Part shown: positions 4,100 through 25,969 of the stretch, one piece after another
Layout: each line of letters starts with the position of its first letter
How positions within the stretch are numbered: position 1 is the first letter of the stretch
Assembly (NCBI GenBank): GCA_020348985.1
Contig: CP070761.1
Coordinates: forward strand, 2,988,564-3,018,113
DNA: 29,550 nucleotides
Direction: 5' to 3'
Source: Candidatus Thorarchaeota archaeon
Lineage (GTDB): Archaea; Asgardarchaeota; Thorarchaeia; Thorarchaeales; Thorarchaeaceae
Program-made: the position numbers and the translations under genes
Notes under the pieces: model-generated
What the model saw: only the letters and a program-made list of their open reading frames with translations
Told to the model about the DNA's origin: nothing
Databases searched by the model: none

Positions 4100-6376
4100 C
4101 TATTGAGCTCCCCCTTGGTACAGGGCAGTAAGCTGAGCATCTTCAAGATAGGAAGGCTCTTGATCGCGCTCGATTCTTTGCCTATTGTCCCAAACTCCTC
4201 TCGCAAGAAGGTCGGCAACCTTTGCGTTGCCGTCAACTCTTTGGGCGGCCTGTGAGTCACCCACTTGCTGAAACACTTGTACGGCGACCGTGTAATTCCC
4301 TACAGCCTCTCTCAGGGCGTCGCTTGCATCTGTGTAGTATTTCTGAGCACCCGGCATGTCTCCCTTTCTCGATCGGAACTCCGCTAGGAAGTCACTCTTA
4401 GCGCCCTCCATTCTCGAAAGATCTCCACGGAATTTCATCACAACTCCTCGTAGCTGAGTCACTTGTGCTTCTACATTGTTGTTCTTCTTGATTTCTTCGC
4501 CTCTTACACTCCCTAGCTCACCTGCAGCCGCTTGATAAGAAGCCACAGCCTGCTTCAGCTTGAGGATTGTCTTGTCATGAGATCGCAACACACCTTCAAT
4601 TGACTCTTGATCGAAGTCATCGGGATGCTGAGCGAGGATACGAAAAGTATTGGCACGTTCCAATTGAGCACGAAATGCCCATTGCTCTGAGAGCCTCGAG
4701 AAAATCTGAGCTTCCGATGCGTATGCGGTGGCGAGAGCGAGGCGGCCTAGATCCGTGAGTTCATCGGCTGGCTCGAGATCATCAACAACTTTGTAGTAGG
4801 AAGCCGCCTCTGCGGCGTGAAGATTCTCTAGAATTCTTGATTGTATGAATTTGACACCCTGCTCAAGCTGCCCACTCAATTGAAACTGGATTACATACTT
4901 CACATTGTTCAGCAAAGCAAGGGTCTTATTCCTGAGGCCTCCAACTTCTTCATCCTCGGATTCTAGACTGAGAAGTATTCCGAGGCTAATCAATCCCTCC
5001 CTGATTGCTTCTAGAGCATCAGACGGGTTCTGTGTTAGTTGTGACGTCGCTTCGTCAAGCGCCTTGCCCACATCCGAAATGAGACCAGTCTTCCTCAAGT
5101 CTTTTGCAAACTCAATCTGTTCTAAGATTCCGGAGAGCTCTCGGTCCTTCTTCTTCAGCAATTCCTCAACAAAGGAGAATGTCCTCAAGTTCTCTTTGAT
5201 TGCGTTCGACAGCTCTCTAGTTTTTGAGAGTTTCTCGGCCTTATTCAGGTCCTTGAAAATGGATTGCAGTGTGGACAAGGATTCCTCTCTGTTATCCACC
5301 ATAAGGAGTCTCGTGAGTTCTAGAACTGCCGCCTCGGCGCGACAATAGAATGCTTGAGCCTTCTTGTGCTCTTTATCGATCTTGGATTGATCTGCGTTAG
5401 ATACGAGCGTTGGTACCTTCCTGAATAACTTCTCTGCCCTGCCAAACGCGTCAGACGATGTTGTGTAGAGTTGCGACGCATCTTCGAGATTTCCAGATCT
5501 CATCTGTGCGTCGGCGATATCATTGTAGGTCATCGCAAGATACACTTCGCTCAGTCCCGCAGTGTTTTTCTTCCAAGAATCGATCAATGACATCTTTGCT
5601 TTGTCGAATTCCTTGCTTTTTTTAAGGTGCGGAATAGCTTCATTGTATAGATCTGTTGCTTGTTCGAAAATGAACGATGCAAGCATATCTCGCCACACAA
5701 GTTCGTCAAAAGGGTTGAATGCCTGCCTAAAGGTGCTCTCTACTCCTATGAGCTCGTTCAGAAATTCATCATAGAATTCGGCTTCGGCAAGCTTGTTCTT
5801 GCCAAGTATTTCGGCAAGCTCCGTTTCTTCAGCATATTTCTTCTCACTTACTAGTGAATATGCCTTGTGCCCAAGCGCTACACGTCTCAGCTTCTGTGTG
5901 CCATCAACCTTGGCCGGTATCGCTGAGAAAGGCCGCTCCAGCATAGTGTAGACAGCTGACAAGGCCTTCGATGCAGACTTGATCTTTTCCTCATGTTCCT
6001 CTTCCACAAAGGGTCCGCTTGCCGCGGCTGCTTGATGGAGCCATGAAAGAACTTTCGATAACCACACATCTGCCTGCGTATTCTGTGCCTGAGTAGTAAG
6101 TGTATCAAAAACTTCCTGAAGCTGCTGCTGTTGTTCCCCTTCAATCTGCGAGATTCTTTCCCGAAGATATGCTAGATGGAAGTCCTCTATCATGGTCTCT
6201 TCATTGAAGTTTGCTAGTTCCTCATAGAGTGAGGAAAACACATCGTGCATTTGGATTCGCTTCTTTTCCAGCCCTGCCTTGTCGTCGATGTCATGCAGGG
6301 AGAAATCTCGAACCGCTTCCTGAGCTAGAACATTCAGTTCAAACAGCTTGCTCGTATAGACAGTGACCCCTGTCAT
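4100..6376 (-). CDS. Large all-alpha hypothetical protein with TPR/SNAP-like helical repeats
   Basis: 775-aa ORF (likely ATG 6376), rich in A/E/L/K. TPR-like segments are ADAQMRSGNLEDASQLYTTSSDAF and AEFRSRKGDMPGAQKYYTDASDAL. No TM segment or catalytic motif seen. Confidence 0.75.
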   Translation of the reverse strand: MTGVTVYTSKLFELNVLAQEAVRDFSLHDIDDKAGLEKKRIQMHDVFSSLYEELANFNEETMIEDFHLAYLRERISQIEGEQQQQLQEVFDTLTTQAQNTQADVWLSKVLSWLHQAAAASGPFVEEEHEEKIKSASKALSAVYTMLERPFSAIPAKVDGTQKLRRVALGHKAYSLVSEKKYAEETELAEILGKNKLAEAEFYDEFLNELIGVESTFRQAFNPFDELVWRDMLASFIFEQATDLYNEAIPHLKKSKEFDKAKMSLIDSWKKNTAGLSEVYLAMTYNDIADAQMRSGNLEDASQLYTTSSDAFGRAEKLFRKVPTLVSNADQSKIDKEHKKAQAFYCRAEAAVLELTRLLMVDNREESLSTLQSIFKDLNKAEKLSKTRELSNAIKENLRTFSFVEELLKKKDRELSGILEQIEFAKDLRKTGLISDVGKALDEATSQLTQNPSDALEAIREGLISLGILLSLESEDEEVGGLRNKTLALLNNVKYVIQFQLSGQLEQGVKFIQSRILENLHAAEAASYYKVVDDLEPADELTDLGRLALATAYASEAQIFSRLSEQWAFRAQLERANTFRILAQHPDDFDQESIEGVLRSHDKTILKLKQAVASYQAAAGELGSVRGEEIKKNNNVEAQVTQLRGVVMKFRGDLSRMEGAKSDFLAEFRSRKGDMPGAQKYYTDASDALREAVGNYTVAVQVFQQVGDSQAAQRVDGNAKVADLLARGVWDNRQRIERDQEPSYLEDAQLTALYQGGAQ

Positions 6377-6533
6377 GTCTATCTCTTTGGCAGGCTTCGC
6401 CCCAATGATGTTACCCACTATGAGCACTCCGAACGTGTTCTGGGTAACGTGCCCCAGCCATACCTATTAAGAATACCTAAGATTATGGGGGTTTTGCGCA
6501 AAAGCCGACACGTGCGAGGTTTAGAGGTCTTCC

Positions 6534-11930: not shown

Positions 11931-12446
11931 CTATCTTCCGTTCTCCAGCCGAAAACTCTGAATGAGATTCTTGTGAATTGGATGTTGTTTCACATCGAAA
12001 TTCCTTGGATTTGTTCTTGCTCCAACATAAACGCCAAACATGACCAATAGCCCATATGGTCCACCGTCAGGAGACGGCACAAGAGCTGCGGACCACTTCT
12101 TGCGGGAAACATTACCCCCAGTTACGAAGCTTATTGCTAGTCTCTCTATCCCAGAAAGCTCAATGGTTGACCTATTGCCAAGTTCTACTGGAGCATGACG
12201 TCCATTCTTGAAGCATCGTTCAATGTGAGTCTCTAATGATTCATAATCATGGTTCATGCTTCTATACGACCTGACCATGAATGAGAGAGGACCTCTCGGT
12301 AATCGCTCAAGAGACAGGTAGCAATTGGGAGACGGAAATCTTGACAGGATTAACCCTGTACCAGATCGATTCAACGAAAAGCCTACTGGAGGAAGGCCGT
12401 TGACAAGTGCTTCAGTTAGAGTTGAACGGATGGAATCAGAGTCCAT
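11931..12446 (-). CDS. Hypothetical protein upstream of tfb
   Basis: 171-aa ORF whose ATG directly follows the upstream TAA and which ends 8 bp before tfb. Confidence 0.6.
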   Translation of the reverse strand: MDSDSIRSTLTEALVNGLPPVGFSLNRSGTGLILSRFPSPNCYLSLERLPRGPLSFMVRSYRSMNHDYESLETHIERCFKNGRHAPVELGNRSTIELSGIERLAISFVTGGNVSRKKWSAALVPSPDGGPYGLLVMFGVYVGARTNPRNFDVKQHPIHKNLIQSFRLENGR

Positions 12447-13751: not shown

Positions 13752-14792
13752 TCAATACATCTCCCTCGAGGATGCTCTTGCAAAGTTGACAAAAGCCACG
13801 CCGGCGAAGAGCAAGAATGCCAGCCAGATAACAACGGTCTCAATTAGCCGAGTCTTGAAGAATAGCTCGACTACCAGGAATAGTCCTATGATGAAGATGT
13901 TAGAAGCTCCACCCATTGTGCTAGAGTCTTTCACTCCGAGAATTCTGCGCACGAGAATCATTATGACAACTATGCCCATTGATATCCAGTTTATGTACAT
14001 CGTGAAGAGGATTGACAGATCGAGAAAGTCTAAGGTTCCAAACATAGTGGGGATGTCGGGCAGATATAGGTAAAGAAACAGAGTAAACAGCAACAGCTCT
14101 CCGAATCGAATCCATCTTGTTGGTGTCTTCGTGTAGGTCGTTTCAAAGACCCCTCTTTCGTATTCTCTGGCCGCGAAGAAGATGAAGTAGATCGGGGCGC
14201 CAAAGCTCAGAGAATTCACAAGACACTGGGCAACTCCATATATCACCACAATCCAGAATGTGTTCCATGACTCAACAATAGCGGTCCACACATTGATGTA
14301 CTGCGGAAGGAATTCGAGCATAACAAACGTAGGAAGAATGCACAGTGCAATTGCTACAATTATGGCCACCACTGCAGCAAGTTTTCCTCCGCCCATCTTG
14401 CCCAATCCCACAGTATAGAAGAGGTGTCCTGCGACATAGAGCCCTCCAACCACAGCCAAGGGTGGGGCAGTCAACGGCAGAATGAAGAATACCAACACAA
14501 ACGCGGCATTGGTACCGTAGAAGACTCTCCAACGTAGCGGAACCGTACTCGTGCTATCATGCATTAGATGAATAGTATTGGCCAGTCGATAGCGAGAGTA
14601 GTAGATTAGTCCAAGCCAAGGTGACGCGAATACTAGTGGTACAACAATGAAGTGGAAAATGAGATTGTACGTGGGGTCGGCGAATGGGGCTAGCTGAAAC
14701 GGCAAGAAGATCACTAGCAGGAAGAAGTAAATGGTTGCAAAGATAGCAAGCAAAACTACTGTTAATCGGGTAATCATCCAATCCGGACTCAA
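13752..14792 (-). CDS. Multi-pass integral membrane protein of unknown function
   Basis: 346 aa with roughly 9-10 hydrophobic segments; abuts the NUDIX gene. Confidence 0.8.
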   Translation of the reverse strand: MSPDWMITRLTVVLLAIFATIYFFLLVIFLPFQLAPFADPTYNLIFHFIVVPLVFASPWLGLIYYSRYRLANTIHLMHDSTSTVPLRWRVFYGTNAAFVLVFFILPLTAPPLAVVGGLYVAGHLFYTVGLGKMGGGKLAAVVAIIVAIALCILPTFVMLEFLPQYINVWTAIVESWNTFWIVVIYGVAQCLVNSLSFGAPIYFIFFAAREYERGVFETTYTKTPTRWIRFGELLLFTLFLYLYLPDIPTMFGTLDFLDLSILFTMYINWISMGIVVIMILVRRILGVKDSSTMGGASNIFIIGLFLVVELFFKTRLIETVVIWLAFLLFAGVAFVNFARASSREMY

Positions 14793-15815: not shown

Positions 15816-17123
15816 GTGGTGGAGCGCATCGCTTCCAAGGAGCAGTTTGTGATGGCAAACAAAACTGGCTATTCCTTTGCCACTTGGACTGGTTTCATCG
15901 AGGAGTCAGAGATTCGTTCTCTTCTGAGATATACTGTCAAGTACTACTTCGCTGGTGGCAAGCCTGGCATAATACCAACTGAGATTTTCGCCAACATAAT
16001 GAAGGACCTTAGCGAGAGATACAAGGCTGATCCAAAGCTCGCTCTTGAAGACTTGAACTATGGACCCACTGGAGGTCAGTCGTGGTTCCTGAAAACCCTG
16101 GCAAAGCGTCTCCATGACGTGCGGGAAGTGCCGATTGATTGTGAGACCGAATGGGAGTGTGTGACGATTACCAATGGGTCACAGCAAGCACTATATGCAC
16201 TGATTGATACAATGATTGATCCAGGTGATATCATAATCACCCCATCCCCCTCGTATTTGGGCTTTCTAGTTCCTGCAGTGAAGCTCGGGGGCAGGATCGT
16301 TACCATCCCCACAGACATGAATGGCATCATCCCCGAGTATGTGGAAAAAGCGATTCTCATATCGAAGAGGAAATTCGGGAAGACTCCGGACATTATGTAT
16401 GTCGTACCCGATTCTGATAATCCTAAGGGCACAACCCTACCTGCTAGCCGAAGAAAGAAACTCTACGATATCGCCGAGAGTCACAATATCCTGATTATCG
16501 AAGACTCGGCTTATGCTGAGATTCAATTCAAAGAGAATCCCAAACCTATCAAGACGTTCGACAAGGACAACAAACGTGTTGCGTACCTTGGTACGACTAG
16601 CAAGGAGGCAGCTGTTCTCCGGGTTGGCTATTCGGTTCTTCCAGTCAATGTAAGAGAACAAGTCCTAAAGGACAAGGGGTATCTTGACTTGTGCACTTCG
16701 ACCCTCGTCCAACGAATCCTCGATGAATACTATAAACATCACATTGATGATGCTATGAAGACTGCCATCCCGCTATACAAGGCACGATACGAAGCCATGG
16801 CTAAGGCAATCGATTCCTCGTTTCCAGCAGGTGAGCGCACTGACCCCACTGGAGGCTTCTTCATCTGGTGGCAGAGTGAGGACAAGTCCTTTAGCAGCAA
16901 GGTCTTCATGCAGGATGTGGCTATTCCAAACGACATCATCTATGTACCTGGCGGTCCATTCTACCCAATCACTGGTTACAAGCTGAATGATGGAGGGAAT
17001 GAGCTTGTACCAGCTAGGCCAGAACTCAATACAATGCGAATTGGGTACTCATACGCCGAACCAGAGCTTATCACAGAAGGGATTGAACGTTTGGGAGGCC
17101 TGCTATCCAAGGCCCTAGGTTGA
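15816..17123 (+). CDS. PLP-dependent aminotransferase class I/II (LysN/ARO8-like)
   Basis: Motifs: FAGGKP, NYGPTGG, TNGSQQAL, NPKG, IIEDSAY, GTTSK(PLP-Lys)EAAVLRVG, PTGGFFIW, MRIGYS. Confidence 0.9.
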   Translation: MVERIASKEQFVMANKTGYSFATWTGFIEESEIRSLLRYTVKYYFAGGKPGIIPTEIFANIMKDLSERYKADPKLALEDLNYGPTGGQSWFLKTLAKRLHDVREVPIDCETEWECVTITNGSQQALYALIDTMIDPGDIIITPSPSYLGFLVPAVKLGGRIVTIPTDMNGIIPEYVEKAILISKRKFGKTPDIMYVVPDSDNPKGTTLPASRRKKLYDIAESHNILIIEDSAYAEIQFKENPKPIKTFDKDNKRVAYLGTTSKEAAVLRVGYSVLPVNVREQVLKDKGYLDLCTSTLVQRILDEYYKHHIDDAMKTAIPLYKARYEAMAKAIDSSFPAGERTDPTGGFFIWWQSEDKSFSSKVFMQDVAIPNDIIYVPGGPFYPITGYKLNDGGNELVPARPELNTMRIGYSYAEPELITEGIERLGGLLSKALG

Positions 17124-18845
17124 GAAGTTCACGAACAGAGTTGCACCATTTCTCATCTCAGGAACATATGCCCTCATATAAGGTCCAAATGGGTCGGCGA
17201 GTCCCGAGTTCACTGTCCATTCTATCCATAGCCACGCAGATTCTTGGCCGAACTTACCTTGAGAATACTGTCCAAAGGCCCAGCTTAGATAACGTTCCAT
17301 ATCCAGCTTTGCCAGATGCTCCTGACTCGAACCATTCTTCTTGACCTTCTCTCCCTTCTTGGCAATCGCCGTCACTTCGGCATTGAGCGCATCGTGTCTT
17401 TCATTGACGAAGTCGTGAAACTCTCGCAAGGCATCATTCATCTCATCACTCTTGCCTTTCTTCTTAGAACGATTAATCTTTCCTGTAATCTTGAACATCT
17501 CTGGAGAGTGAAGAGCTGGGAGGTCTTTCTCCTTGAGTTGGCCTGCAAGGTCTTCATTCCAGGGAGTGTTGAAGTACACTCTGGGATACTTCACGAAGAC
17601 TGGGAACGGAACCTTCAGCTCATTTGCTATCGGAATGACCTGAGCATAGTAAGCTGTCTCACCTTCGCCGCCGACATGTGCGATGACTGGAAGCACGGTG
17701 TCAATAGCAAACTGCCTGGAATCGACCCTTGGCGATAACAAGTGCGCGAATTCCTTCAGGTCGGGATCGGTGGTCGAAACCTCAATTTCGACCAATTCGC
17801 CACATGTAGGACACTTTCCTGTAAGGAGTCCACTGCTGCCGCGAGTCTCGTAATTCATCTCGACTCTGCTTCGATGACAGTTGGAACCAGGACATTCGTA
17901 GAAGAACGGTACATAGTTGGTCTGTCTATCTCCCGCACCAGGGATGAAGCCGCTGCTCTTTATTCTCTCTGTGATCTCCATATGTACTCTCAAGAACTTC
18001 TCTCTGATATCTTCTCTCAGGAGAAACTCGAATCCGTTCGACATCAGTTTCCTGATTCTCTCATCGCTGGCGGAAATCAGAGGTATACCAAGATTTCCCT
18101 CAACATTAAGCAGACGGGCTAGAATCCGTTCGGAGAAATCACCCAGACAACTAGAATTGACAAAAGCGTGCCTGATGAGGGCCAAACCAGCTTCAAGTCT
18201 TTCTTCAAACAGCTTTCGTGTATTCATTTCTAATGACTTGAACATCGGGCGATAACTGGCCTTCATGCCTTCTTCTACGTCCTCTAGCCATTCATAGTTC
18301 GGCAAAGGAAGTGATCCGGCAGGCGAATTCTCATACCCTTTTGGAACTGGAATGCTGATCAGGTTCCCTCCTTGTCCCATAATCGGAGTCCTGATTTTGA
18401 TGAGCTCAGTTTGAACAACATCATAATCGGCCACGAAGAAGAACGGGGTGAGTTCATTCTCCTGCCCTACGCTCATATCGGCGATTCTTCTTGCTGTTGC
18501 CGCCTTATTCAGTACGTAGCATGGGCCTCCTGCAATGACACTCTGATGAGCTGCCTCAATCGCACCACTTCCAAGAGCATCAATGCTCCTTCCTACTCGA
18601 GGAGTCAATCCGCCAAGGTCGTGGTTGATTTCAACAAGTGCTTTCGCTAGTGAGCCTTCTCGCGTTGGGTCGTGCCAGCCTTGCTCTTCGTACTCAGCTA
18701 AAATGGGTGATACAAGTTCCATAATCTCTCCCATGGTCTTTGGAGGATTGCCGTACAGATCACTTGCAAGCGCACTTCTTTGGTCCTTCCAAATGAAATC
18801 TGAATAGACTGTGCTTACACTATCCCCCAATAGGCATGCCTCCAT
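17115..18845 (-). CDS. bshC: Divergent BshC-like (bacillithiol cysteine-adding) enzyme
   Basis: AHQSVIAGGPCYVLNKA (cf. GQQ..L.TGPLY..HK), PFFFVADYD (cf. PIFW.AGEDHD), SPRVDSR...LPVIAHVGGEGETAYYAQ...PR (cf. SPNV..RP...PT.A..GPGE..YW), a helical region, then GQES (cf. LQER). Lies 2 bp downstream of bshA. Confidence 0.78.
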   Translation of the reverse strand: MEACLLGDSVSTVYSDFIWKDQRSALASDLYGNPPKTMGEIMELVSPILAEYEEQGWHDPTREGSLAKALVEINHDLGGLTPRVGRSIDALGSGAIEAAHQSVIAGGPCYVLNKAATARRIADMSVGQENELTPFFFVADYDVVQTELIKIRTPIMGQGGNLISIPVPKGYENSPAGSLPLPNYEWLEDVEEGMKASYRPMFKSLEMNTRKLFEERLEAGLALIRHAFVNSSCLGDFSERILARLLNVEGNLGIPLISASDERIRKLMSNGFEFLLREDIREKFLRVHMEITERIKSSGFIPGAGDRQTNYVPFFYECPGSNCHRSRVEMNYETRGSSGLLTGKCPTCGELVEIEVSTTDPDLKEFAHLLSPRVDSRQFAIDTVLPVIAHVGGEGETAYYAQVIPIANELKVPFPVFVKYPRVYFNTPWNEDLAGQLKEKDLPALHSPEMFKITGKINRSKKKGKSDEMNDALREFHDFVNERHDALNAEVTAIAKKGEKVKKNGSSQEHLAKLDMERYLSWAFGQYSQGKFGQESAWLWIEWTVNSGLADPFGPYMRAYVPEMRNGATLFVNFST

Positions 18846-18847
18846 CC

Positions 18848-20020
18848 CTACTTCCGAACGCTTTCGAGTACTCTTTCGTATTTCGAGACAATCTGCTCGG
18901 CTGAGAAGCTTGTCTCCACGCGTTTTCGGCCGCTAGCTGCTATCTCCTTTCTGAGCTTTTCGTTCTCAAGAAGGTCTATAATTGCTTCAGCAAATTCGTC
19001 TTGCTCGAACCCTTTGGTGACTATGCCGTCAATTCCAGGTCTTACGAGTTCAGGAATCCCGCCAGCAGGTGTAGTCACGACTGGAAGACTGCAAGACATG
19101 GCCTCCAATAGAGTAAGGGGCATTCCTTCGAGTGTGGAGTTCAATAGGAACACATCAGCTGAACACATTATTTCCTGCATATTGCTCTTGATTCCTAGAA
19201 GATGCACGTTGTTACAGAGGTCAAGCTCCTCAATCTTTCTTTCAACTTCGATTCTTGTTGGCCCGTCTCCGGCAATGATGAGTCTTGTATTCGGGAGGTG
19301 GTCCACTACTATCCTCATGATTTCAACTAGCCCGACAACTCTCTTGACACGCCTGAAGTTGGAGGCATGAAGCAAGATCATCTCATCCGGCTTAATCTCT
19401 TGGAGATCTTCCGTTTTGCGAAGTGAAACACATCCACTCTCAACCGTAAGTCGAATTCCATTAAGATGGCTGAACCTCTCGATGTCAATGAAATTGGGGA
19501 TGACTTCTATATCCCGTTCGATTCCAAGCTCTTCTTTCGCCTTTTTCTTCAAGAACTCAGAAACGCATGTTACGGCGTCAGCGTTTTCTACTGCATGTTT
19601 GACTACTGGACGATATGCTGGGTCAAGACCCAGTGTGTGAACGTCCGAACCATGGAGTGTTACAGCATAGGGAATCCCACATATTTCCCGAGCCATATAG
19701 GCTGACATTGCATGAGGTATCGCATAGTGTGAATGAACGACATCTAGCTTTGCGTCATGTGCCACTTTGATTATCTTTGAGGTGAGTGCCATTGTATACG
19801 GTGGCCCAATCGTCTTAAACAAAGGATAGTCAAACCGGTCCACTAGATCTACGTAGACTCCACTTGTCTGCTCCCACATCAAAGAAAATGGACGCTCATA
19901 CGAAATGAAATGAATCTGATGGCCTCTCTTTGCCAGGCTTTGACCAAGTCGCGTGGCAAGATAGCCTGAGCCGCCAACCCCTGGGTACAGGTTGACCCCT
20001 ATCCTCATGCGTTCACCCAT
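18848..20020 (-). CDS. bshA: N-acetyl-alpha-D-glucosaminyl L-malate synthase-like GT4 glycosyltransferase
   Basis: BshA-specific motifs: YPGVGGSG..AT.LG..LA.RGH.IHFI, YPLF...PPY..AL.SK, HSHYAIPHA, TLHGSD..LG.DP, HASNFRRVKRV; also the EX7E motif EGMPLTLLE. Start is ATG 20020 or 20008. Confidence 0.92.
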   Translation of the reverse strand: MGERMRIGVNLYPGVGGSGYLATRLGQSLAKRGHQIHFISYERPFSLMWEQTSGVYVDLVDRFDYPLFKTIGPPYTMALTSKIIKVAHDAKLDVVHSHYAIPHAMSAYMAREICGIPYAVTLHGSDVHTLGLDPAYRPVVKHAVENADAVTCVSEFLKKKAKEELGIERDIEVIPNFIDIERFSHLNGIRLTVESGCVSLRKTEDLQEIKPDEMILLHASNFRRVKRVVGLVEIMRIVVDHLPNTRLIIAGDGPTRIEVERKIEELDLCNNVHLLGIKSNMQEIMCSADVFLLNSTLEGMPLTLLEAMSCSLPVVTTPAGGIPELVRPGIDGIVTKGFEQDEFAEAIIDLLENEKLRKEIAASGRKRVETSFSAEQIVSKYERVLESVRK

Positions 20021-20119
20021 GCGCAAGAGGCTCGTCTCATTCCCTTTAAGGAAACTGGTTTCGACATGATGATTCAAGAATGAAATACTTTGATTAGATA
20101 GGACTACAGTCTTCACACC
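20021..20119. promoter_or_regulatory. Divergent promoter region between bshA and the bshB-like gene
   Basis: 99-bp gap between head-to-head genes; minus-strand CTTAAA at ~20044-20049, about 24 nt from ATG 20020. Confidence 0.5.
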
Positions 20120-20788
20120 ATGGGCGAGCAAAAAGATGCTTCGATTCTGGTTGTAGTAGCTCATCCTGACGATGAGACGTTAGGGGCGGGCGGCACAATT
20201 CGTGCGCATACGGAACAGAGCAAACCAGTTGATGTGCTCTGCATGACTGGTAGCGACATGCGGAATAAGGAGCTTCAGGCAGCGGGTGAGAAACTAGGAG
20301 TAAGGTATCTCTACCTAAGTGAACGTGATGACTTCGCAATTGGCAATTCTCTCATACATGAGGTTGTAGGTGCGATTCTCAAATCTCAGCCCAAGATTCT
20401 AATCACACACTCGACATCTGACTACAACCGTAACCACTCAAATTGCGCACAGATTGTGTTCGAAGCAGTTGAGTGGGCATCGCATTCCACCATCTTCGAG
20501 AACGCTCACAGAGTGGAACGAATCTACAACATGGAAATTAATACGCTGCTCTCGAGACCGAATGTGTTTGTCAATGTGACAAAGCAATACAAGATCGCAC
20601 TTTCAGCACTCCGAGAGCACAAATCCCAAACTGGAAAATCTGACGACTACTATCTAAAGCTGTACGATGCAAGAACCAGGTTACGTGGTGTTCAGTCCGA
20701 ATGCGAACGAGCCGAGGCTTTCTCAATAACATTGCCTGAGCATGCTGGACCATTCTATCCTGAGAATCACGTGACAAGTCTGATTTAG
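20120..20788 (+). CDS. bshB: PIG-L/LmbE family deacetylase, BshB-like
   Basis: Motifs: AHPDDE..G.GG, R..E...A, HKSQ and AEAF; divergent from bshA. The second motif reads NRNH rather than HxDH. Confidence 0.8.
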   Translation: MGEQKDASILVVVAHPDDETLGAGGTIRAHTEQSKPVDVLCMTGSDMRNKELQAAGEKLGVRYLYLSERDDFAIGNSLIHEVVGAILKSQPKILITHSTSDYNRNHSNCAQIVFEAVEWASHSTIFENAHRVERIYNMEINTLLSRPNVFVNVTKQYKIALSALREHKSQTGKSDDYYLKLYDARTRLRGVQSECERAEAFSITLPEHAGPFYPENHVTSLI

Positions 20789-21195
20789 GATTCGCTTCCT
20801 TCTGACTTTCTTCTCCTAGCTGCTAGGAGGGACTTGAGCTCGCCCATCAAACTTGTCGGACCGCCTGGACTGGCGGCAGGCGCAGGACTAGGTGCTCTAG
20901 CAATCGGTTCACCCGCTGCGGCAGGAGATGGTGTGGGCGCAGAAGATACGCCAGCAGGAGCTCCCTGGGCTAGCCGTGCATAGTTAGATTCAAGCTGGGC
21001 AATTCTGCCATCAATTTCACTGATTTTAGCATTGACTGAGTTGACGATTTCTTGTAGCTCTCCGATCGCATCCACAAGCTTAGTCGTAATGGTGCTGACC
21101 ACTTCGCCTAATTGACGGATACGGACCTCGTTTGGGTCGCTTAGTGCCCACTCGAAATCTTCCATTATGCCAAGTTCGTCTTTTTCCTTTGCCAT
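20785..21195 (-). CDS. Coiled-coil + Pro/Ala-rich + basic amphipathic C-terminal helix protein (candidate actin regulator)
   Basis: 136 aa from ATG 21195 with its own TATA box (minus-strand TTTTATA, 21237-21243). The ORF is well supported; the function is inferred. Confidence 0.8.
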   Translation of the reverse strand: MAKEKDELGIMEDFEWALSDPNEVRIRQLGEVVSTITTKLVDAIGELQEIVNSVNAKISEIDGRIAQLESNYARLAQGAPAGVSSAPTPSPAAAGEPIARAPSPAPAASPGGPTSLMGELKSLLAARRRKSEGSES

Positions 21196-21280
21196 CCGGC
21201 TAGCTCCGTGCAATACCTCGCTTGTAGCAGTTGTGCTATAAAACTATCTCACACGTAAAAATGAAACCATTTCGATTGGA

Positions 21281-24733: not shown

Positions 24734-25282
24734 ATGAGCAGTGCTTACGATTTCCTGTTCAAGATTGTCGTCCTAGGCGAGGGTGCTGTTGGGAAGACCG
24801 CCATTGTGACTCGCTTCAGTCACGGTTTCTTCCGTACCGACTACAAAACCACCATCGGCTCCCAGTTCGCAGTCAAGAATATCGAAATTGTCGATGATGC
24901 GGGCACTCGGACTACTGTTAAGTTGCAGATCTGGGACGTAGCTGGCCAATCTCGGTTCCAGATTCTCAGGCCGATGTACTATCGCGGAGCAAGTGGTGGG
25001 CTTCTGGTATACGATGTCAGTCGAAAGAGGACATTCATTGTACTTGATGAATGGCTCGACGAGTTAACGAAGGCTATCAACAAGGAAATCCCGCTGGTTC
25101 TCGTGGCAAACAAGACTGACCTTCCAGACCGAGTTGTGGAACCTGCGGAAGGACAGGAGTACGCGAGAGGGAAGGGCATGCCCTATGTCGAGTCCTCAGC
25201 CAAGACTGGCGAAGGAATCGTAGATATCTTTGAAGAGCTTGCGAAGGTACTTGTCTCAACTCGCAAGAAAGGTTCAGATTAG
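24734..25282 (+). CDS. Rab-like small GTPase (eukaryotic signature protein)
   Basis: G1 GEGAVGKT, G2 TTIG, G3 WDVAGQ, G4 NKTD, G5 SAK; RabF-like KLQIW, YYRGA and LVYDV. Confidence 0.95.
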   Translation: MSSAYDFLFKIVVLGEGAVGKTAIVTRFSHGFFRTDYKTTIGSQFAVKNIEIVDDAGTRTTVKLQIWDVAGQSRFQILRPMYYRGASGGLLVYDVSRKRTFIVLDEWLDELTKAINKEIPLVLVANKTDLPDRVVEPAEGQEYARGKGMPYVESSAKTGEGIVDIFEELAKVLVSTRKKGSD

Positions 25283-25384
25283 CTATCGTCTCGCTTCGTG
25301 GCTGTGTTTTCCGGTCACACGTTATGCTAAAAGAGTCAATCCCAACGCTAATTTGGGAGAAGTCTGCAAGTTGGAACTTGAACG

Positions 25385-25969
25385 ATGTCAAGGGTTGAAG
25401 AGTACTACGGCGTCAACGTTTTACCTCCCATAGCCTGGGCTCTCGACCTCTACCTCAAGAAGTTCCCAAAACTCAAGAAGTCTGGCGCAATTGAAGTCAC
25501 ATTCACTGCAGAGAGTCATAGAGAACGCCTATCAGCGAAGGGCCAGCACGAGATTGTAGTATGGTTCACAAACAAGGAGCTCTTCGCTAGGGGCAGGTGC
25601 ACCTTTGAAAAAGAATGCAAATTCAACACGGAGCGCGTCAGTGCCAGGGACCGGGAAGGGTTGAAGGAACTCGACTGGAGCAAACTGAATAATCGGCAGC
25701 TATTCAAAGCTCTGACGAAGCTCTTGATGAAACTAGACCTTGACTTCGTGACACTCATTCGTGCCCTGAATACAGTTAGTGACCACAAGGTAAAGATCCC
25801 GCACACGACAAAATGGGACCGGACATTCGAGAAGTTCGATGATTATCGCAAGAACCGATGGCCAGAAGACGTTGACACTAGCGACAGAGCAAGATTCATC
25901 GAGGAAGTGCTTGTCAGAGTCTGTTTCTGGTTCATGTCGGCTGCGGCGGTTGGAGACCTCAAAACCTAG
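25385..25969 (+). CDS. Hypothetical protein
   Basis: 194-aa ORF with ATG start, first gene of a tightly spaced run; no family recognised. Confidence 0.75.
   Translation: MSRVEEYYGVNVLPPIAWALDLYLKKFPKLKKSGAIEVTFTAESHRERLSAKGQHEIVVWFTNKELFARGRCTFEKECKFNTERVSARDREGLKELDWSKLNNRQLFKALTKLLMKLDLDFVTLIRALNTVSDHKVKIPHTTKWDRTFEKFDDYRKNRWPEDVDTSDRARFIEEVLVRVCFWFMSAAAVGDLKT

What the first reader, a model, noticed from the sequence alone, without database searches (positions are those of the whole stretch)
20785..21195. Miniature WASH/WAVE/Ena-VASP-like protein: candidate archaeal actin nucleation or elongation regulator
Seen: three modules. These are a ~55-aa amphipathic coiled coil (EVRIRQLGEVVSTITTKLVDAIGELQEIVNSVNAKISEIDGRIAQLE), a Pro/Ala/Ser linker (APTPSPAAAGEPIARAPSPAPAASPGGP) and a terminal helix SLMGELKSLLAARRRKSE. 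From recalled eukaryotic sequences, the tail resembles the VASP F-actin-binding motif ([15 protein letters not shown]) and the WASH central helix (DLMSDLFNKLVMRRK). The N-terminal helix resembles the WAVE/WASH homology helix (IRQLG...GEL...N...RV..L.ERV..L). The module order matches WASP-family proteins, and Asgard archaea encode actin, profilin and gelsolins. Inference: a proto-WASH/WAVE or VASP-like factor that oligomerises and binds actin. Caveats: coiled coils match spuriously, and there is no true poly-Pro run, LKK-type WH2 motif or acidic-Trp tail.
Basis: partly seen in the sequence, partly recalled or inferred. Interest (0 to 1): 0.82.

Follow-up and report, generated by a model that had tools for sequence, protein, structure and literature searches.

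The report
Asgard coiled-coil protein, VASP-like tail
This small gene is the Thorarchaeota member of an unnamed protein family found in most Asgard archaea. It has a pairing helix, a floppy arm and a nearly invariant end helix that resembles the filament-binding motif of animal VASP, so it is a good but unproven candidate for a missing archaeal actin or membrane adaptor.

Summary

- **Structure:** the AF2 model shows a helical head (residues 2-76), a disordered Ala/Pro/Ser arm (77-114) and a terminal helix (115-132).
- **Conservation:** the gene is single-copy with its own conserved TATA promoter. It is found in 78-79 of 85 genomes of its own (Thor) family and, with a phylum-wide profile, in 297 of 400 Asgard genomes.
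- **Loki-type orthologs:** they keep the head and tail but carry true GPPPPP tracts in the arm. In some lineages the whole module is fused to Arf-like GTPases or sits beside an arfaptin-like BAR gene.
- **Known families:** no Pfam, NCBIfam, PDB-sequence or Atlas family matches. The WASH/WAVE likeness is not supported and the tail is not a WH2.
- **VASP likeness:** the published human VASP F-actin-binding motif scores 17.8 bits against the tail profile. Only 4 of about 1 million background windows and 20 of 200,000 shuffles reach that score.
- **Not tested:** actin binding.

My best reading (about 0.35) is an oligomeric adaptor that displays several actin-docking helices. The main rivals are a membrane anchor or a tail that docks on another partner.

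This scan has already found the family on other DNA many times, including a Thor member. I found no paper that describes it.

The parts
20785..21195 (-). Complete CDS, 136 aa plus TAA stop (protein P0001)
   Evidence: The start at ATG 21195 agrees with the N-termini of homologs. The upstream TTG at 21213 adds 6 residues that are not conserved.
21142..21192 (-). N-terminal acidic/aromatic helix (residues 2-18) with invariant F14-E15-W16-A17-L18, ending at invariant D20-P21
   Evidence: AF2 helix 2-18; invariant columns among 34 Thor sequences. Loki-type orthologs begin M-A-E-E-F at the equivalent place.
20968..21135 (-). Long heptad helix (residues 21-76). The first half (L29-Q48) is invariant in Thor; the second half is variable but keeps the heptad pattern.
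   Evidence: AF2 helix 21-76, pLDDT above 90 over about 30-70; alignments A1 and A2. The nearest PDB sequences are parallel trimeric coiled coils.
20854..20967 (-). Disordered Ala/Pro/Ser/Gly arm (residues 77-114), variable in length and sequence; no Pro run longer than 1 in this protein
   Evidence: pLDDT below 50 for 83-113; Pro fraction 0.20 and longest Pro run 1. Loki-type orthologs have Pro fraction 0.3-0.44 and runs of 4-5 Pro.
20800..20853 (-). C-terminal basic helix (residues 115-132); core motif L116-K130 lies at 20806-20850
   Evidence: AF2 helix 115-132. M117, G118, E119, L120, K121, L124, A126, R127, R128 and K130 are invariant in Thor. L120 is invariant, and E119, K121, L123 and R127 are at least 90% conserved, across the phylum. 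The human VASP FAB scores 17.8 bits against its profile.
21236..21243 (-). TATA-like box TTTTATAG about 45 nt upstream of the ATG, in the 85-bp spacer after the phosphoglucomutase-family gene
   Evidence: The same G-T-T-T-A-T-A-G-C element lies about 47-50 nt upstream of the start in 22 of 27 Thor loci, and a TTAATAAC variant in the others.
21204..21207 (-). GGAG, a possible ribosome-binding site 9-12 nt before the ATG
   Evidence: GGGG or GGAG occupies the same position in other Thor loci. The function is inferred.

Best explanation
The gene encodes the Thorarchaeota form of an undescribed, nearly pan-Asgard 'head, arm, tail' adaptor. The N-terminal helices (residues 2-76) form a parallel oligomer, and a trimer is suggested. 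Each chain throws out a flexible 40-residue arm that ends in an almost invariant basic helix (consensus M-G-E-L-K-x-L-L-A-A-R-R-R-K). I propose that this helix docks on actin as the F-actin-binding motif of Ena/VASP does, or in the manner of the C-terminal helix of arcadin-2 on crenactin. The oligomer would then bind several actin subunits or filaments at once and tether or bundle filaments, possibly at a membrane site set by small GTPases and BAR-like proteins. In Thor the arm has no polyproline, so profilin-actin delivery, which is plausible for the Loki-type orthologs, is not expected here. The Thor protein would be a filament tether or bundler and not a polymerase. Shown: the gene, the modules, the conservation, the distribution, the fusions and the motif likeness. 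Inferred: oligomerisation, actin as the partner, and the activity.
For: (1) The tail is conserved residue by residue, including an acidic and a glycine position, across lineages whose arms are unalignable. This pattern fits a docking peptide for a very conserved protein, and Asgard actins are 72-95% identical across the phylum. (2) The published human VASP FAB sequence (PMC10340426) fits the tail profile without gaps at 17.8 bits. Only 4 of 996,453 background 15-mers of this genome reach that score, one being the gene itself, as do 20 of 200,000 shuffles of the same residues. Thor-only and non-Thor-only profiles both give the signal. (3) Loki-type orthologs place GPPPPP-type tracts, the classic profilin ligand, directly before the tail. 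(4) The family is confined to Asgard genomes, which carry actin. This genome has actin and gelsolins. (5) There is an archaeal precedent: arcadin-2 has a core, a non-conserved linker and a conserved 17-residue C-terminal helix that binds the hydrophobic groove of crenactin at 31 nM (PMC5173319). (6) In Loki-type genomes the module is fused to Arf-like GTPases and lies next to an arfaptin/I-BAR-like gene. A Lokiactin co-immunoprecipitation enriched an ARF GTPase significantly and detected two BAR proteins below significance (PMC13716822). (7) Papers up to September 2026 name only profilins and gelsolins as Asgard actin regulators and note the lack of formin or Ena/VASP-type factors.
Against: There is no direct evidence of actin binding. 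The FAB likeness rests on 15 residues and was noticed after the fact. At this score a whole eukaryotic proteome would hold tens of chance matches. No profile method links the family to Ena/VASP, WH2 or WASP families. The module order differs from VASP, with the coiled coil first and no EVH1 or GAB. The gene is not next to actin, profilin or gelsolin here or in the loci examined; in Thor it lies between sugar and thiol metabolism genes. The published Lokiactin co-immunoprecipitation does not list such a protein in its main text, and in the genome I take to be L. ossiferum no GTPase carries the tail. A flexible linker plus a terminal basic helix on small GTPases is also the classic layout of a membrane anchor. 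With the profiles used, the family was not detected in several actin-bearing Asgard families.
Confidence: 0.35

Rival explanations
1. The tail is a membrane-targeting helix. The protein would be an oligomeric peripheral membrane scaffold that works with BAR-like proteins and Arf-like GTPases in membrane shaping, with no direct actin contact.
For: The tail is terminal, follows a flexible linker, carries a net charge of +4 and is moderately amphipathic (best 11-mer hydrophobic moment 0.35 in Thor and 0.44 in Loki-type). The same module ends Arf-like GTPases, where a linker plus basic helix would be expected to anchor the G-domain to a membrane. In Loki-type genomes it neighbours a BAR-like gene. 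One relative is itself membrane-anchored.
Against: Lipid-binding helices are usually conserved in character, not letter by letter. Here G118, E119, L120 and K121 are invariant or nearly so across the phylum. The whole-helix moment is low (0.10-0.14 over 18 residues) and the mean hydrophobicity is modest. The invariant head would still need a partner.
Confidence: 0.25
2. The tail is a docking peptide for another conserved Asgard protein, for example a small GTPase, the BAR-like protein, or an ESCRT or trafficking component. The family would be a generic tether unrelated to actin.
For: The conservation pattern says 'specific partner' but does not name it. Fusion to Arf-like GTPases is a Rosetta-stone hint of a GTPase-linked pathway. 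The arfaptin-like fold of the neighbour recalls a BAR domain that binds Arf/Arl/Rac. A Ras/Rab-like GTPase lies 3.5 kb away in this window.
Against: No specific alternative partner is indicated by any test. By eye the tail does not fit the ESCRT-III MIM1 pattern (D/E)xxLxxRLxxL(K/R), which I cite from my own knowledge. The FAB likeness would then be coincidence.
Confidence: 0.25
3. The protein is a true evolutionary homolog of WASP-family proteins (the WAVE SHD or WASH WAHD helix plus a C helix), a proto-nucleation-promoting factor for an Arp2/3-like complex.
Against: There were no WAHD, SCAR, BRK1 or WH2 hits for 32 members at E up to 10, and CCDC53 appeared only at noise level. The PDB profile search gave only generic trimeric coiled coils. 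There is no WH2 and no C-terminal acidic-Trp, and the order of elements is reversed. The presence of Arp2/3 subunits was not examined here.
Confidence: 0.03

Closest known systems
Ena/VASP EVH2 module (human VASP: GAB 223-239, FAB 259-278, tetramerising coiled coil 343-380; PMC10340426)
   Same: Both combine an oligomerising coiled coil, a flexible Pro-containing region (true GPPPPP tracts in Loki-type orthologs) and a short basic helix. The FAB 15-mer fits the family tail profile without gaps at 17.8 bits.
   Different: There is no EVH1 domain and no GAB/WH2-like motif (GAB scores -6 bits). The coiled coil is N-terminal and looks trimer-like, whereas VASP has a C-terminal right-handed tetramer. 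The protein is 136 aa in all. The Thor arm has no polyproline. No profile-level homology was found.
Arcadin-2 of Pyrobaculum (crenactin regulator; PDB 5LY3; PMC5173319)
   Same: It is an archaeal protein with a core, a non-conserved unstructured linker and a small conserved C-terminal helix that is the only actin-binding element.
   Different: Arcadin-2 belongs to another lineage and another actin (crenactin). It is encoded in the arcade cluster next to its actin, its peptide relies on a Trp, and it depolymerises filaments.
WH2 domain (Pfam PF02205; thymosin-beta/WASP type)
   Same: Both are short amphipathic helices followed by basic residues after a Pro-rich region. The Loki-type tail begins R-G-A-I-M-x-E-L-K, which by eye recalls the start of WH2 helices (a resemblance from my memory, not a test).
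   Different: The defining LKK(T/V) motif after a short linker is absent. No WH2 match appeared for 32 members at E up to 10.
C-terminal extensions of Asgard Arf-like GTPases (P0143; L091:373-1611; L092:217-1626)
   Same: They carry the same head, coil, arm and tail module, with tails such as S-L-R-G-A-I-M-G-E-L-K-E-L-F-A-K-K.
   Different: There the module is covalently attached to a G-domain. The Thor protein stands alone, and no fused copy was found in this genome.
MIM / IRSp53 type I-BAR actin adaptors
   Same: In Loki-type genomes a BAR-like gene lies directly beside the family gene. It is arfaptin-like, with IRSp53 and MIM I-BAR domains among the top fold matches. Together the two genes give the parts list BAR + Pro-rich + terminal actin-motif-like helix.
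   Different: The parts are split over two genes. The BAR-like neighbour was not found in this Thor genome with the query used. The fold matches are weak in E-value (0.005 and above).

Membership tests
Ena/VASP | N-terminal EVH1 (WH1) domain | tested here: not met
   No WH1/EVH1 hit in Pfam at E up to 10 for this protein or for 32 family members. The 136 aa are fully accounted for by helices and a linker.
Ena/VASP | Proline-rich region with GPPPPP-type profilin-binding tracts | tested here: not met
   This protein has a longest Pro run of 1 and a Pro fraction of 0.20. Loki-type orthologs do meet the feature, with runs of 4-5 Pro and up to 8 PPP windows.
Ena/VASP | G-actin-binding site (WH2-like, KLRK/KLKK) | tested here: not met
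   No such motif is present. The human GAB scores -6 bits against the tail profile, and 3.7% of background windows score as high.
Ena/VASP | F-actin-binding motif (human 259-278) | tested here: inconclusive
   The motif-level likeness is strong: 17.8 bits, reached by 4 of 996,453 background windows and 20 of 200,000 shuffles. However, it covers only 15 residues, was chosen after the fact, and binding is untested.
Ena/VASP | C-terminal tetramerisation coiled coil (Pfam VASP_tetra) | tested here: not met
   The coiled coil is N-terminal. No VASP_tetra hit was found. The nearest PDB sequences are trimeric coiled coils. The oligomeric state itself was not tested.
WH2 domain | Amphipathic helix followed by LKK(T/V) | tested here: not met
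   No LKK(T/V) is present. WH2 was not among the Pfam matches reported for the query (all families at E up to 10) or the 25 families listed for the 32 members.
WASP family (WAVE SHD, WASH WAHD, VCA) | SHD or WAHD N-terminal homology region, and C helix plus acidic-Trp tail | tested here: not met
   No SHD or WAHD hits were found, and CCDC53 appeared only at noise level (3 of 32 members, best E 0.02). The PDB profile search gave no WAVE, WASH or BRK1 chain among the best 60. The C-terminus is basic, not acidic-Trp.
Pan-Asgard head-arm-tail family (unnamed) | Acidic/aromatic N-terminus, conserved head helix, heptad coil, variable Pro/Ala/Gly arm, and a terminal (I/L/M)(M/Q)x(E/D)LKxL(F/L)xx(R/K) helix | tested here: met
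   Alignments A1, A2 and A3. The A2 profile gives E 5.7e-40 on this locus and matches 297 of 400 Asgard genomes.
Membrane-targeting amphipathic helix (MinD/FtsA type) | Terminal helix with a high hydrophobic moment and flanking basic residues; lipid binding | tested here: inconclusive
   The best 11-mer moment is 0.35, the 18-mer moment 0.14 and the net charge +4. Lipid binding cannot be tested with these tools.
Arcadin-2-like actin-groove binders | Conserved C-terminal helix after a non-conserved linker that binds the actin hydrophobic groove | not testable with these tools
   The architecture matches.

The most novel reading that the evidence does not exclude
The family is the archaeal forerunner, or an ancient functional equivalent, of the Ena/VASP EVH2 module. 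On this reading it is a multivalent coiled-coil protein whose tail binds actin filaments or barbed ends, and whose polyproline arm (in Loki-type lineages) recruits profilin-actin. It would then be the first filament tether or polymerase of the Asgard actin cytoskeleton beyond profilin and gelsolin, wired to Arf-like GTPases and BAR-like proteins.
Probability: 0.15. Interest if true: 0.9.

Novelty: new variant of a known kind. Interest (0 to 1): 0.62.

Why it matters
[quoted passage not shown] Cultured members build dynamic actin-filled protrusions and crawl. The papers read here, up to a Nature paper of September 2026, name only profilins and gelsolins as their actin regulators and point out that formin or Ena/VASP-type polymerases are missing.

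This family is small, highly conserved and nearly phylum-wide, and it has no name and no Pfam model. Its layout and end motif mirror an animal actin-assembly factor, and its module is also attached to Arf-like GTPases and partnered with a BAR-like gene. That makes it a cheap, concrete candidate to test.

- If the tail binds actin, a core piece of eukaryotic actin-membrane coupling logic would predate eukaryotes.
- If the tail binds membranes or another partner, it still defines a new Asgard adaptor.

Tried and rejected
1. Complex prediction of the tail (alignment A3) with this genome's actin (A4) and ATP. The tool did not fold it, because it will not pair a eukaryote-like chain with a microbial one.
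2. RNA evidence: no RNA holder was listed for the locus.
3. Pfam, NCBIfam and PDB-sequence searches of the protein, of 32 members and of the tail profile. They gave only coiled-coil noise (DEC-1_N, TRPM_tetra, Baculo_PEP_C, NPV_P10, trimeric viral and adhesin coils) and nothing for the tail.
4. ESM Atlas: only unnamed Asgard clusters, no named neighbour, and structure hits that are generic long helices.
5. Fused forms of the Thor-type tail in proteins longer than 238 aa: none. There is no second copy of the tail or module in this genome. Gelsolin or profilin fusions reported in earlier scan notes were not seen in the five Loki-type genomes I searched.
6. SNARE-like reading, prompted by the invariant Q48 in mid-coil. 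I rejected it because there is no membrane anchor after the coil and the Q is not conserved outside Thor.
7. ESCRT-III MIM1 reading of the tail. I rejected it by eye because the spacing of Leu and Arg does not fit the consensus, which I cite from my own knowledge.
8. Functional linkage to the neighbouring genes in Thor (phosphoglucomutase family upstream; PIG-L deacetylase and GT4/BshC-like genes downstream). The synteny is conserved in 27 loci, but the gene has its own promoter and the neighbours differ completely in other Asgard lineages, so I treat it as synteny only.
9. The Elf1-like zinc-ribbon gene that often neighbours the family in Loki-type genomes. I saw no functional connection.

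Full report
**The object**

The finding's coordinates match a 136-codon ORF on the minus strand, with ATG at 21195 and TAA at 20785-20787.
- AF2 with a 34-sequence alignment predicts helices 2-18 and 21-76 (pLDDT above 90 over about residues 30-70), a disordered stretch (83-113 below pLDDT 50) and a terminal helix 115-132 at moderate confidence.
- The gene follows a phosphoglucomutase-family gene after an 85-bp spacer that holds a TATA-like box about 45 nt before the ATG and a GGAG 9-12 nt before it.
- The same G-T-T-T-A-T-A-G-C element sits about 47-50 nt upstream in 22 of 27 Thorarchaeota loci, and a close variant sits there in the rest. The gene therefore looks independently transcribed.

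**A conserved gene in a narrow family**

- A word-indexed search found 164 clusters of 123-163 aa. Nearly all that carry a name are from Thorarchaeota.
- An exhaustive HMMER pass over 1.84 billion representatives found only 17 clusters at E up to 0.001. Several of those are long coiled-coil proteins that match only the coil.
- Among 34 Thor sequences, 28 columns are invariant. They fall into two blocks, F14-Q48 (head) and M117-K130 (tail), separated by a variable heptad coil and a variable Ala/Pro/Gly arm.
- A Thor-only profile hits 79 of 85 genomes of the window's own family.
- A phylum-wide profile hits 297 of 400 Asgard genomes at E up to 1e-5, and 74 of 90 high-quality genomes. Some families gave few or no matches with this profile.
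- The genome is a single 3.16-Mb contig and has one copy.

**What the relatives add**

The non-Thor orthologs are 121-170 aa.
- They begin M-A-E-E-F and keep the head helix and a heptad coil.
- Their arms are truly polyproline, with GAPPPPPG and GGPPGGPP repeats, a Pro fraction of 0.3-0.44 and runs of 4-5 Pro.
- They end in a tail such as N-P-V-S-L-R-G-A-I-M-G-E-L-K-E-L-F-A-K-R-K-K.
- Across the phylum L120 is invariant, and E119, K121, L123 and R127 are at least 90% conserved.

The Thor arm is a degenerate Ala/Pro/Ser version.

**Known families**

- Pfam and NCBIfam gave only sub-threshold coiled-coil matches for this protein and for all 32 aligned members. No WH2, VASP_tetra, WAHD or SCAR match appeared, and CCDC53 appeared for 3 of 32 members with a best E of 0.02.
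- PDB sequences gave nothing for the tail profile. For the whole profile they gave only parallel trimeric coiled coils: coronavirus HR1, trimeric autotransporter stalks, reovirus sigma-1 and influenza HA2. This hints at a trimer but proves nothing.
- The ESM Atlas returned only unnamed Asgard clusters.

**The VASP likeness, tested**

A review prints the human VASP motifs: GAB 223-APGLAAAIAGAKLRKVS-239 and FAB 259[20 protein letters not shown]278 (PMC10340426). I built a weighted 15-column log-odds profile of the tail from alignment A3. I scored it against every 15-mer in all open frames of at least 150 aa in this genome, 996,453 windows in all.
- The FAB core [15 protein letters not shown] scores 17.8 bits. 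Only 4 background windows reach this, and one of them is the gene itself.
- Only 20 of 200,000 shuffles of the same 15 residues reach it, so the order of residues matters as well as the composition.
- Thor-only and non-Thor-only profiles both give the signal, at 17.7 and 16.1 bits.
- The GAB scores -6 bits, which is no likeness.

The resemblance is real at the motif level, but it is short and was picked after the fact. A eukaryotic proteome would contain tens of chance matches at this score. What makes it notable is the context: a coiled coil and, in the orthologs, GPPPPP tracts right before it.

**Context and fusions**

*In Thor.* The order 'phosphoglucomutase-family gene, this gene, PIG-L deacetylase (opposite strand), GT4 glycosyltransferase' is kept in 27 loci. 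The neighbours are entirely different elsewhere, so I read this as synteny only.

*In Loki-type genomes.*
- A 206-228-aa gene lies directly beside the family gene in 9 loci. It has a weak FCH/F-BAR Pfam hit. Its AF2 model has pLDDT 90.7 and three long helices. Its best PDB fold matches are BAR domains: arfaptin at TM 0.60-0.66, FAM92A, and IRSp53 and MIM I-BAR, although the E-values are only 0.005 and above.
- A length-shifted search with a Loki tail found a 426-aa Arf-like GTPase whose C-terminal 110 residues are the whole module.
- Scanning five complete or near-complete genomes with the tail profile found two more such GTPases (412 and 469 aa) and a 697-aa membrane-anchored protein with an internal tail-like motif.
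- I found no gelsolin or profilin fusion in those five genomes, and no fused form of the Thor-type tail.

**Literature**

- Papers up to a Nature article of 30 September 2026 describe Asgard actin regulation as resting on profilins and gelsolins, and they note that formins and Ena/VASP-type polymerases are part of the eukaryotic machinery. In that study a Lokiactin co-immunoprecipitation enriched a profilin, five gelsolins and an ARF GTPase, and detected two BAR proteins below significance.
- Thor and Heimdall profilins bind a VASP polyproline peptide weakly, and Loki and Odin profilins were reported not to bind (PMC8410842).
- Arcadin-2 of Pyrobaculum is an archaeal precedent for a conserved C-terminal helix on a floppy linker that plugs the actin hydrophobic groove (PMC5173319).
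- I found no paper that describes this family.

**Mechanism and odds**

The letter-by-letter conservation of the tail, including Gly and Glu positions, argues for a specific protein partner rather than a generic lipid-binding helix. The hydrophobic moment is only moderate.
- **Actin is the best-motivated partner (about 0.35).** The points in favour are the FAB likeness, the polyproline in orthologs, the restriction to Asgard archaea and the arcadin-2 precedent. In Thor, without polyproline, I expect a multivalent filament tether or bundler rather than a polymerase.
- **A membrane anchor (about 0.25) and an unidentified protein partner (about 0.25) remain serious rivals.** The GTPase fusions and the BAR-like neighbour fit all three readings.
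- **True WASP-family homology is unlikely (about 0.03).**

No RNA run was listed.

**Relation to earlier scan notes**

This scan has flagged the same family on other DNA in at least 28 genomes, including a Thor member.
- I re-derived the family, the BAR-like neighbour and the GTPase fusions independently here.
- My profile test disagrees with notes that say the tail fails every sequence test for a VASP motif. It fails WH2 and GAB tests but not a FAB comparison.

Noticed in passing
window 17115-20788: A BshC-like gene (Rossmann-like_BshC, E 1.4e-13) and a GT4 glycosyltransferase lie on the minus strand, with a divergent PIG-L deacetylase. This looks like a bacillithiol-type thiol pathway in an Asgard genome. 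The PIG-L and GT4 genes keep this position in 25-28 Thor loci.
   Followed up: partly
window 24734-25969: A Ras/Rab-like small GTPase (182 aa, Pfam Ras E 3.5e-49) lies 3.5 kb from the gene, followed by a 194-aa ORF with no Pfam match. No link to the finding was shown.
   Followed up: no
L001:5-1000 (+), own genome, convergent with the actin gene at L001:1495-2631 (-): A 331-aa protein with no Pfam match lies directly beside the genome's only actin gene. It has a long Pro/Ala/Glu-rich region, then a coiled coil and a lysine-rich end, so it is another possible actin-associated protein.
   Followed up: no
G000:C1:1009140-1009661 (L051/L052) and 2888302-2888487 (L053): A two-domain gelsolin lies about 14 kb from the actin gene, and a second single-domain gelsolin hit lies elsewhere. 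Pfam Profilin found nothing, but the control genomes were also silent, so that says nothing.
   Followed up: no
L035:3761-4444 (-), L045:3523-4140 (-) and 7 further loci: A BAR-like gene of about 206-228 aa sits directly beside the family gene in Loki-type genomes. Its model has three long helices, and the best PDB fold matches are arfaptin and IRSp53/MIM I-BAR. It was not found in this Thor genome with the protein query used.
   Followed up: yes
L090:694-2787 (+), genome G143: A 697-aa protein with a C-terminal transmembrane segment carries an internal Pro-rich stretch followed by a tail-like motif (S-P-Q-T-L-R-G-G-M-T-E-E-L-K-T-L-F-S-K). It looks like a membrane-anchored relative of the module.
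   Followed up: partly
L002-L031, about 47-50 nt upstream of the family gene: A strongly conserved promoter element (A-A-A-C-A-A-G-G-T-T-T-A-T-A-G-C-G or close variants) and a GGGG/GGAG box about 10 nt before the start occur across Thor genomes. This suggests strong, independent expression.
   Followed up: partly
window 4100-6427 (-), 11931-12446 (-), 13752-14792 (-): Three sizeable ORFs (775, 171 and 346 aa) have no Pfam match at E up to 1e-4.
   Followed up: no
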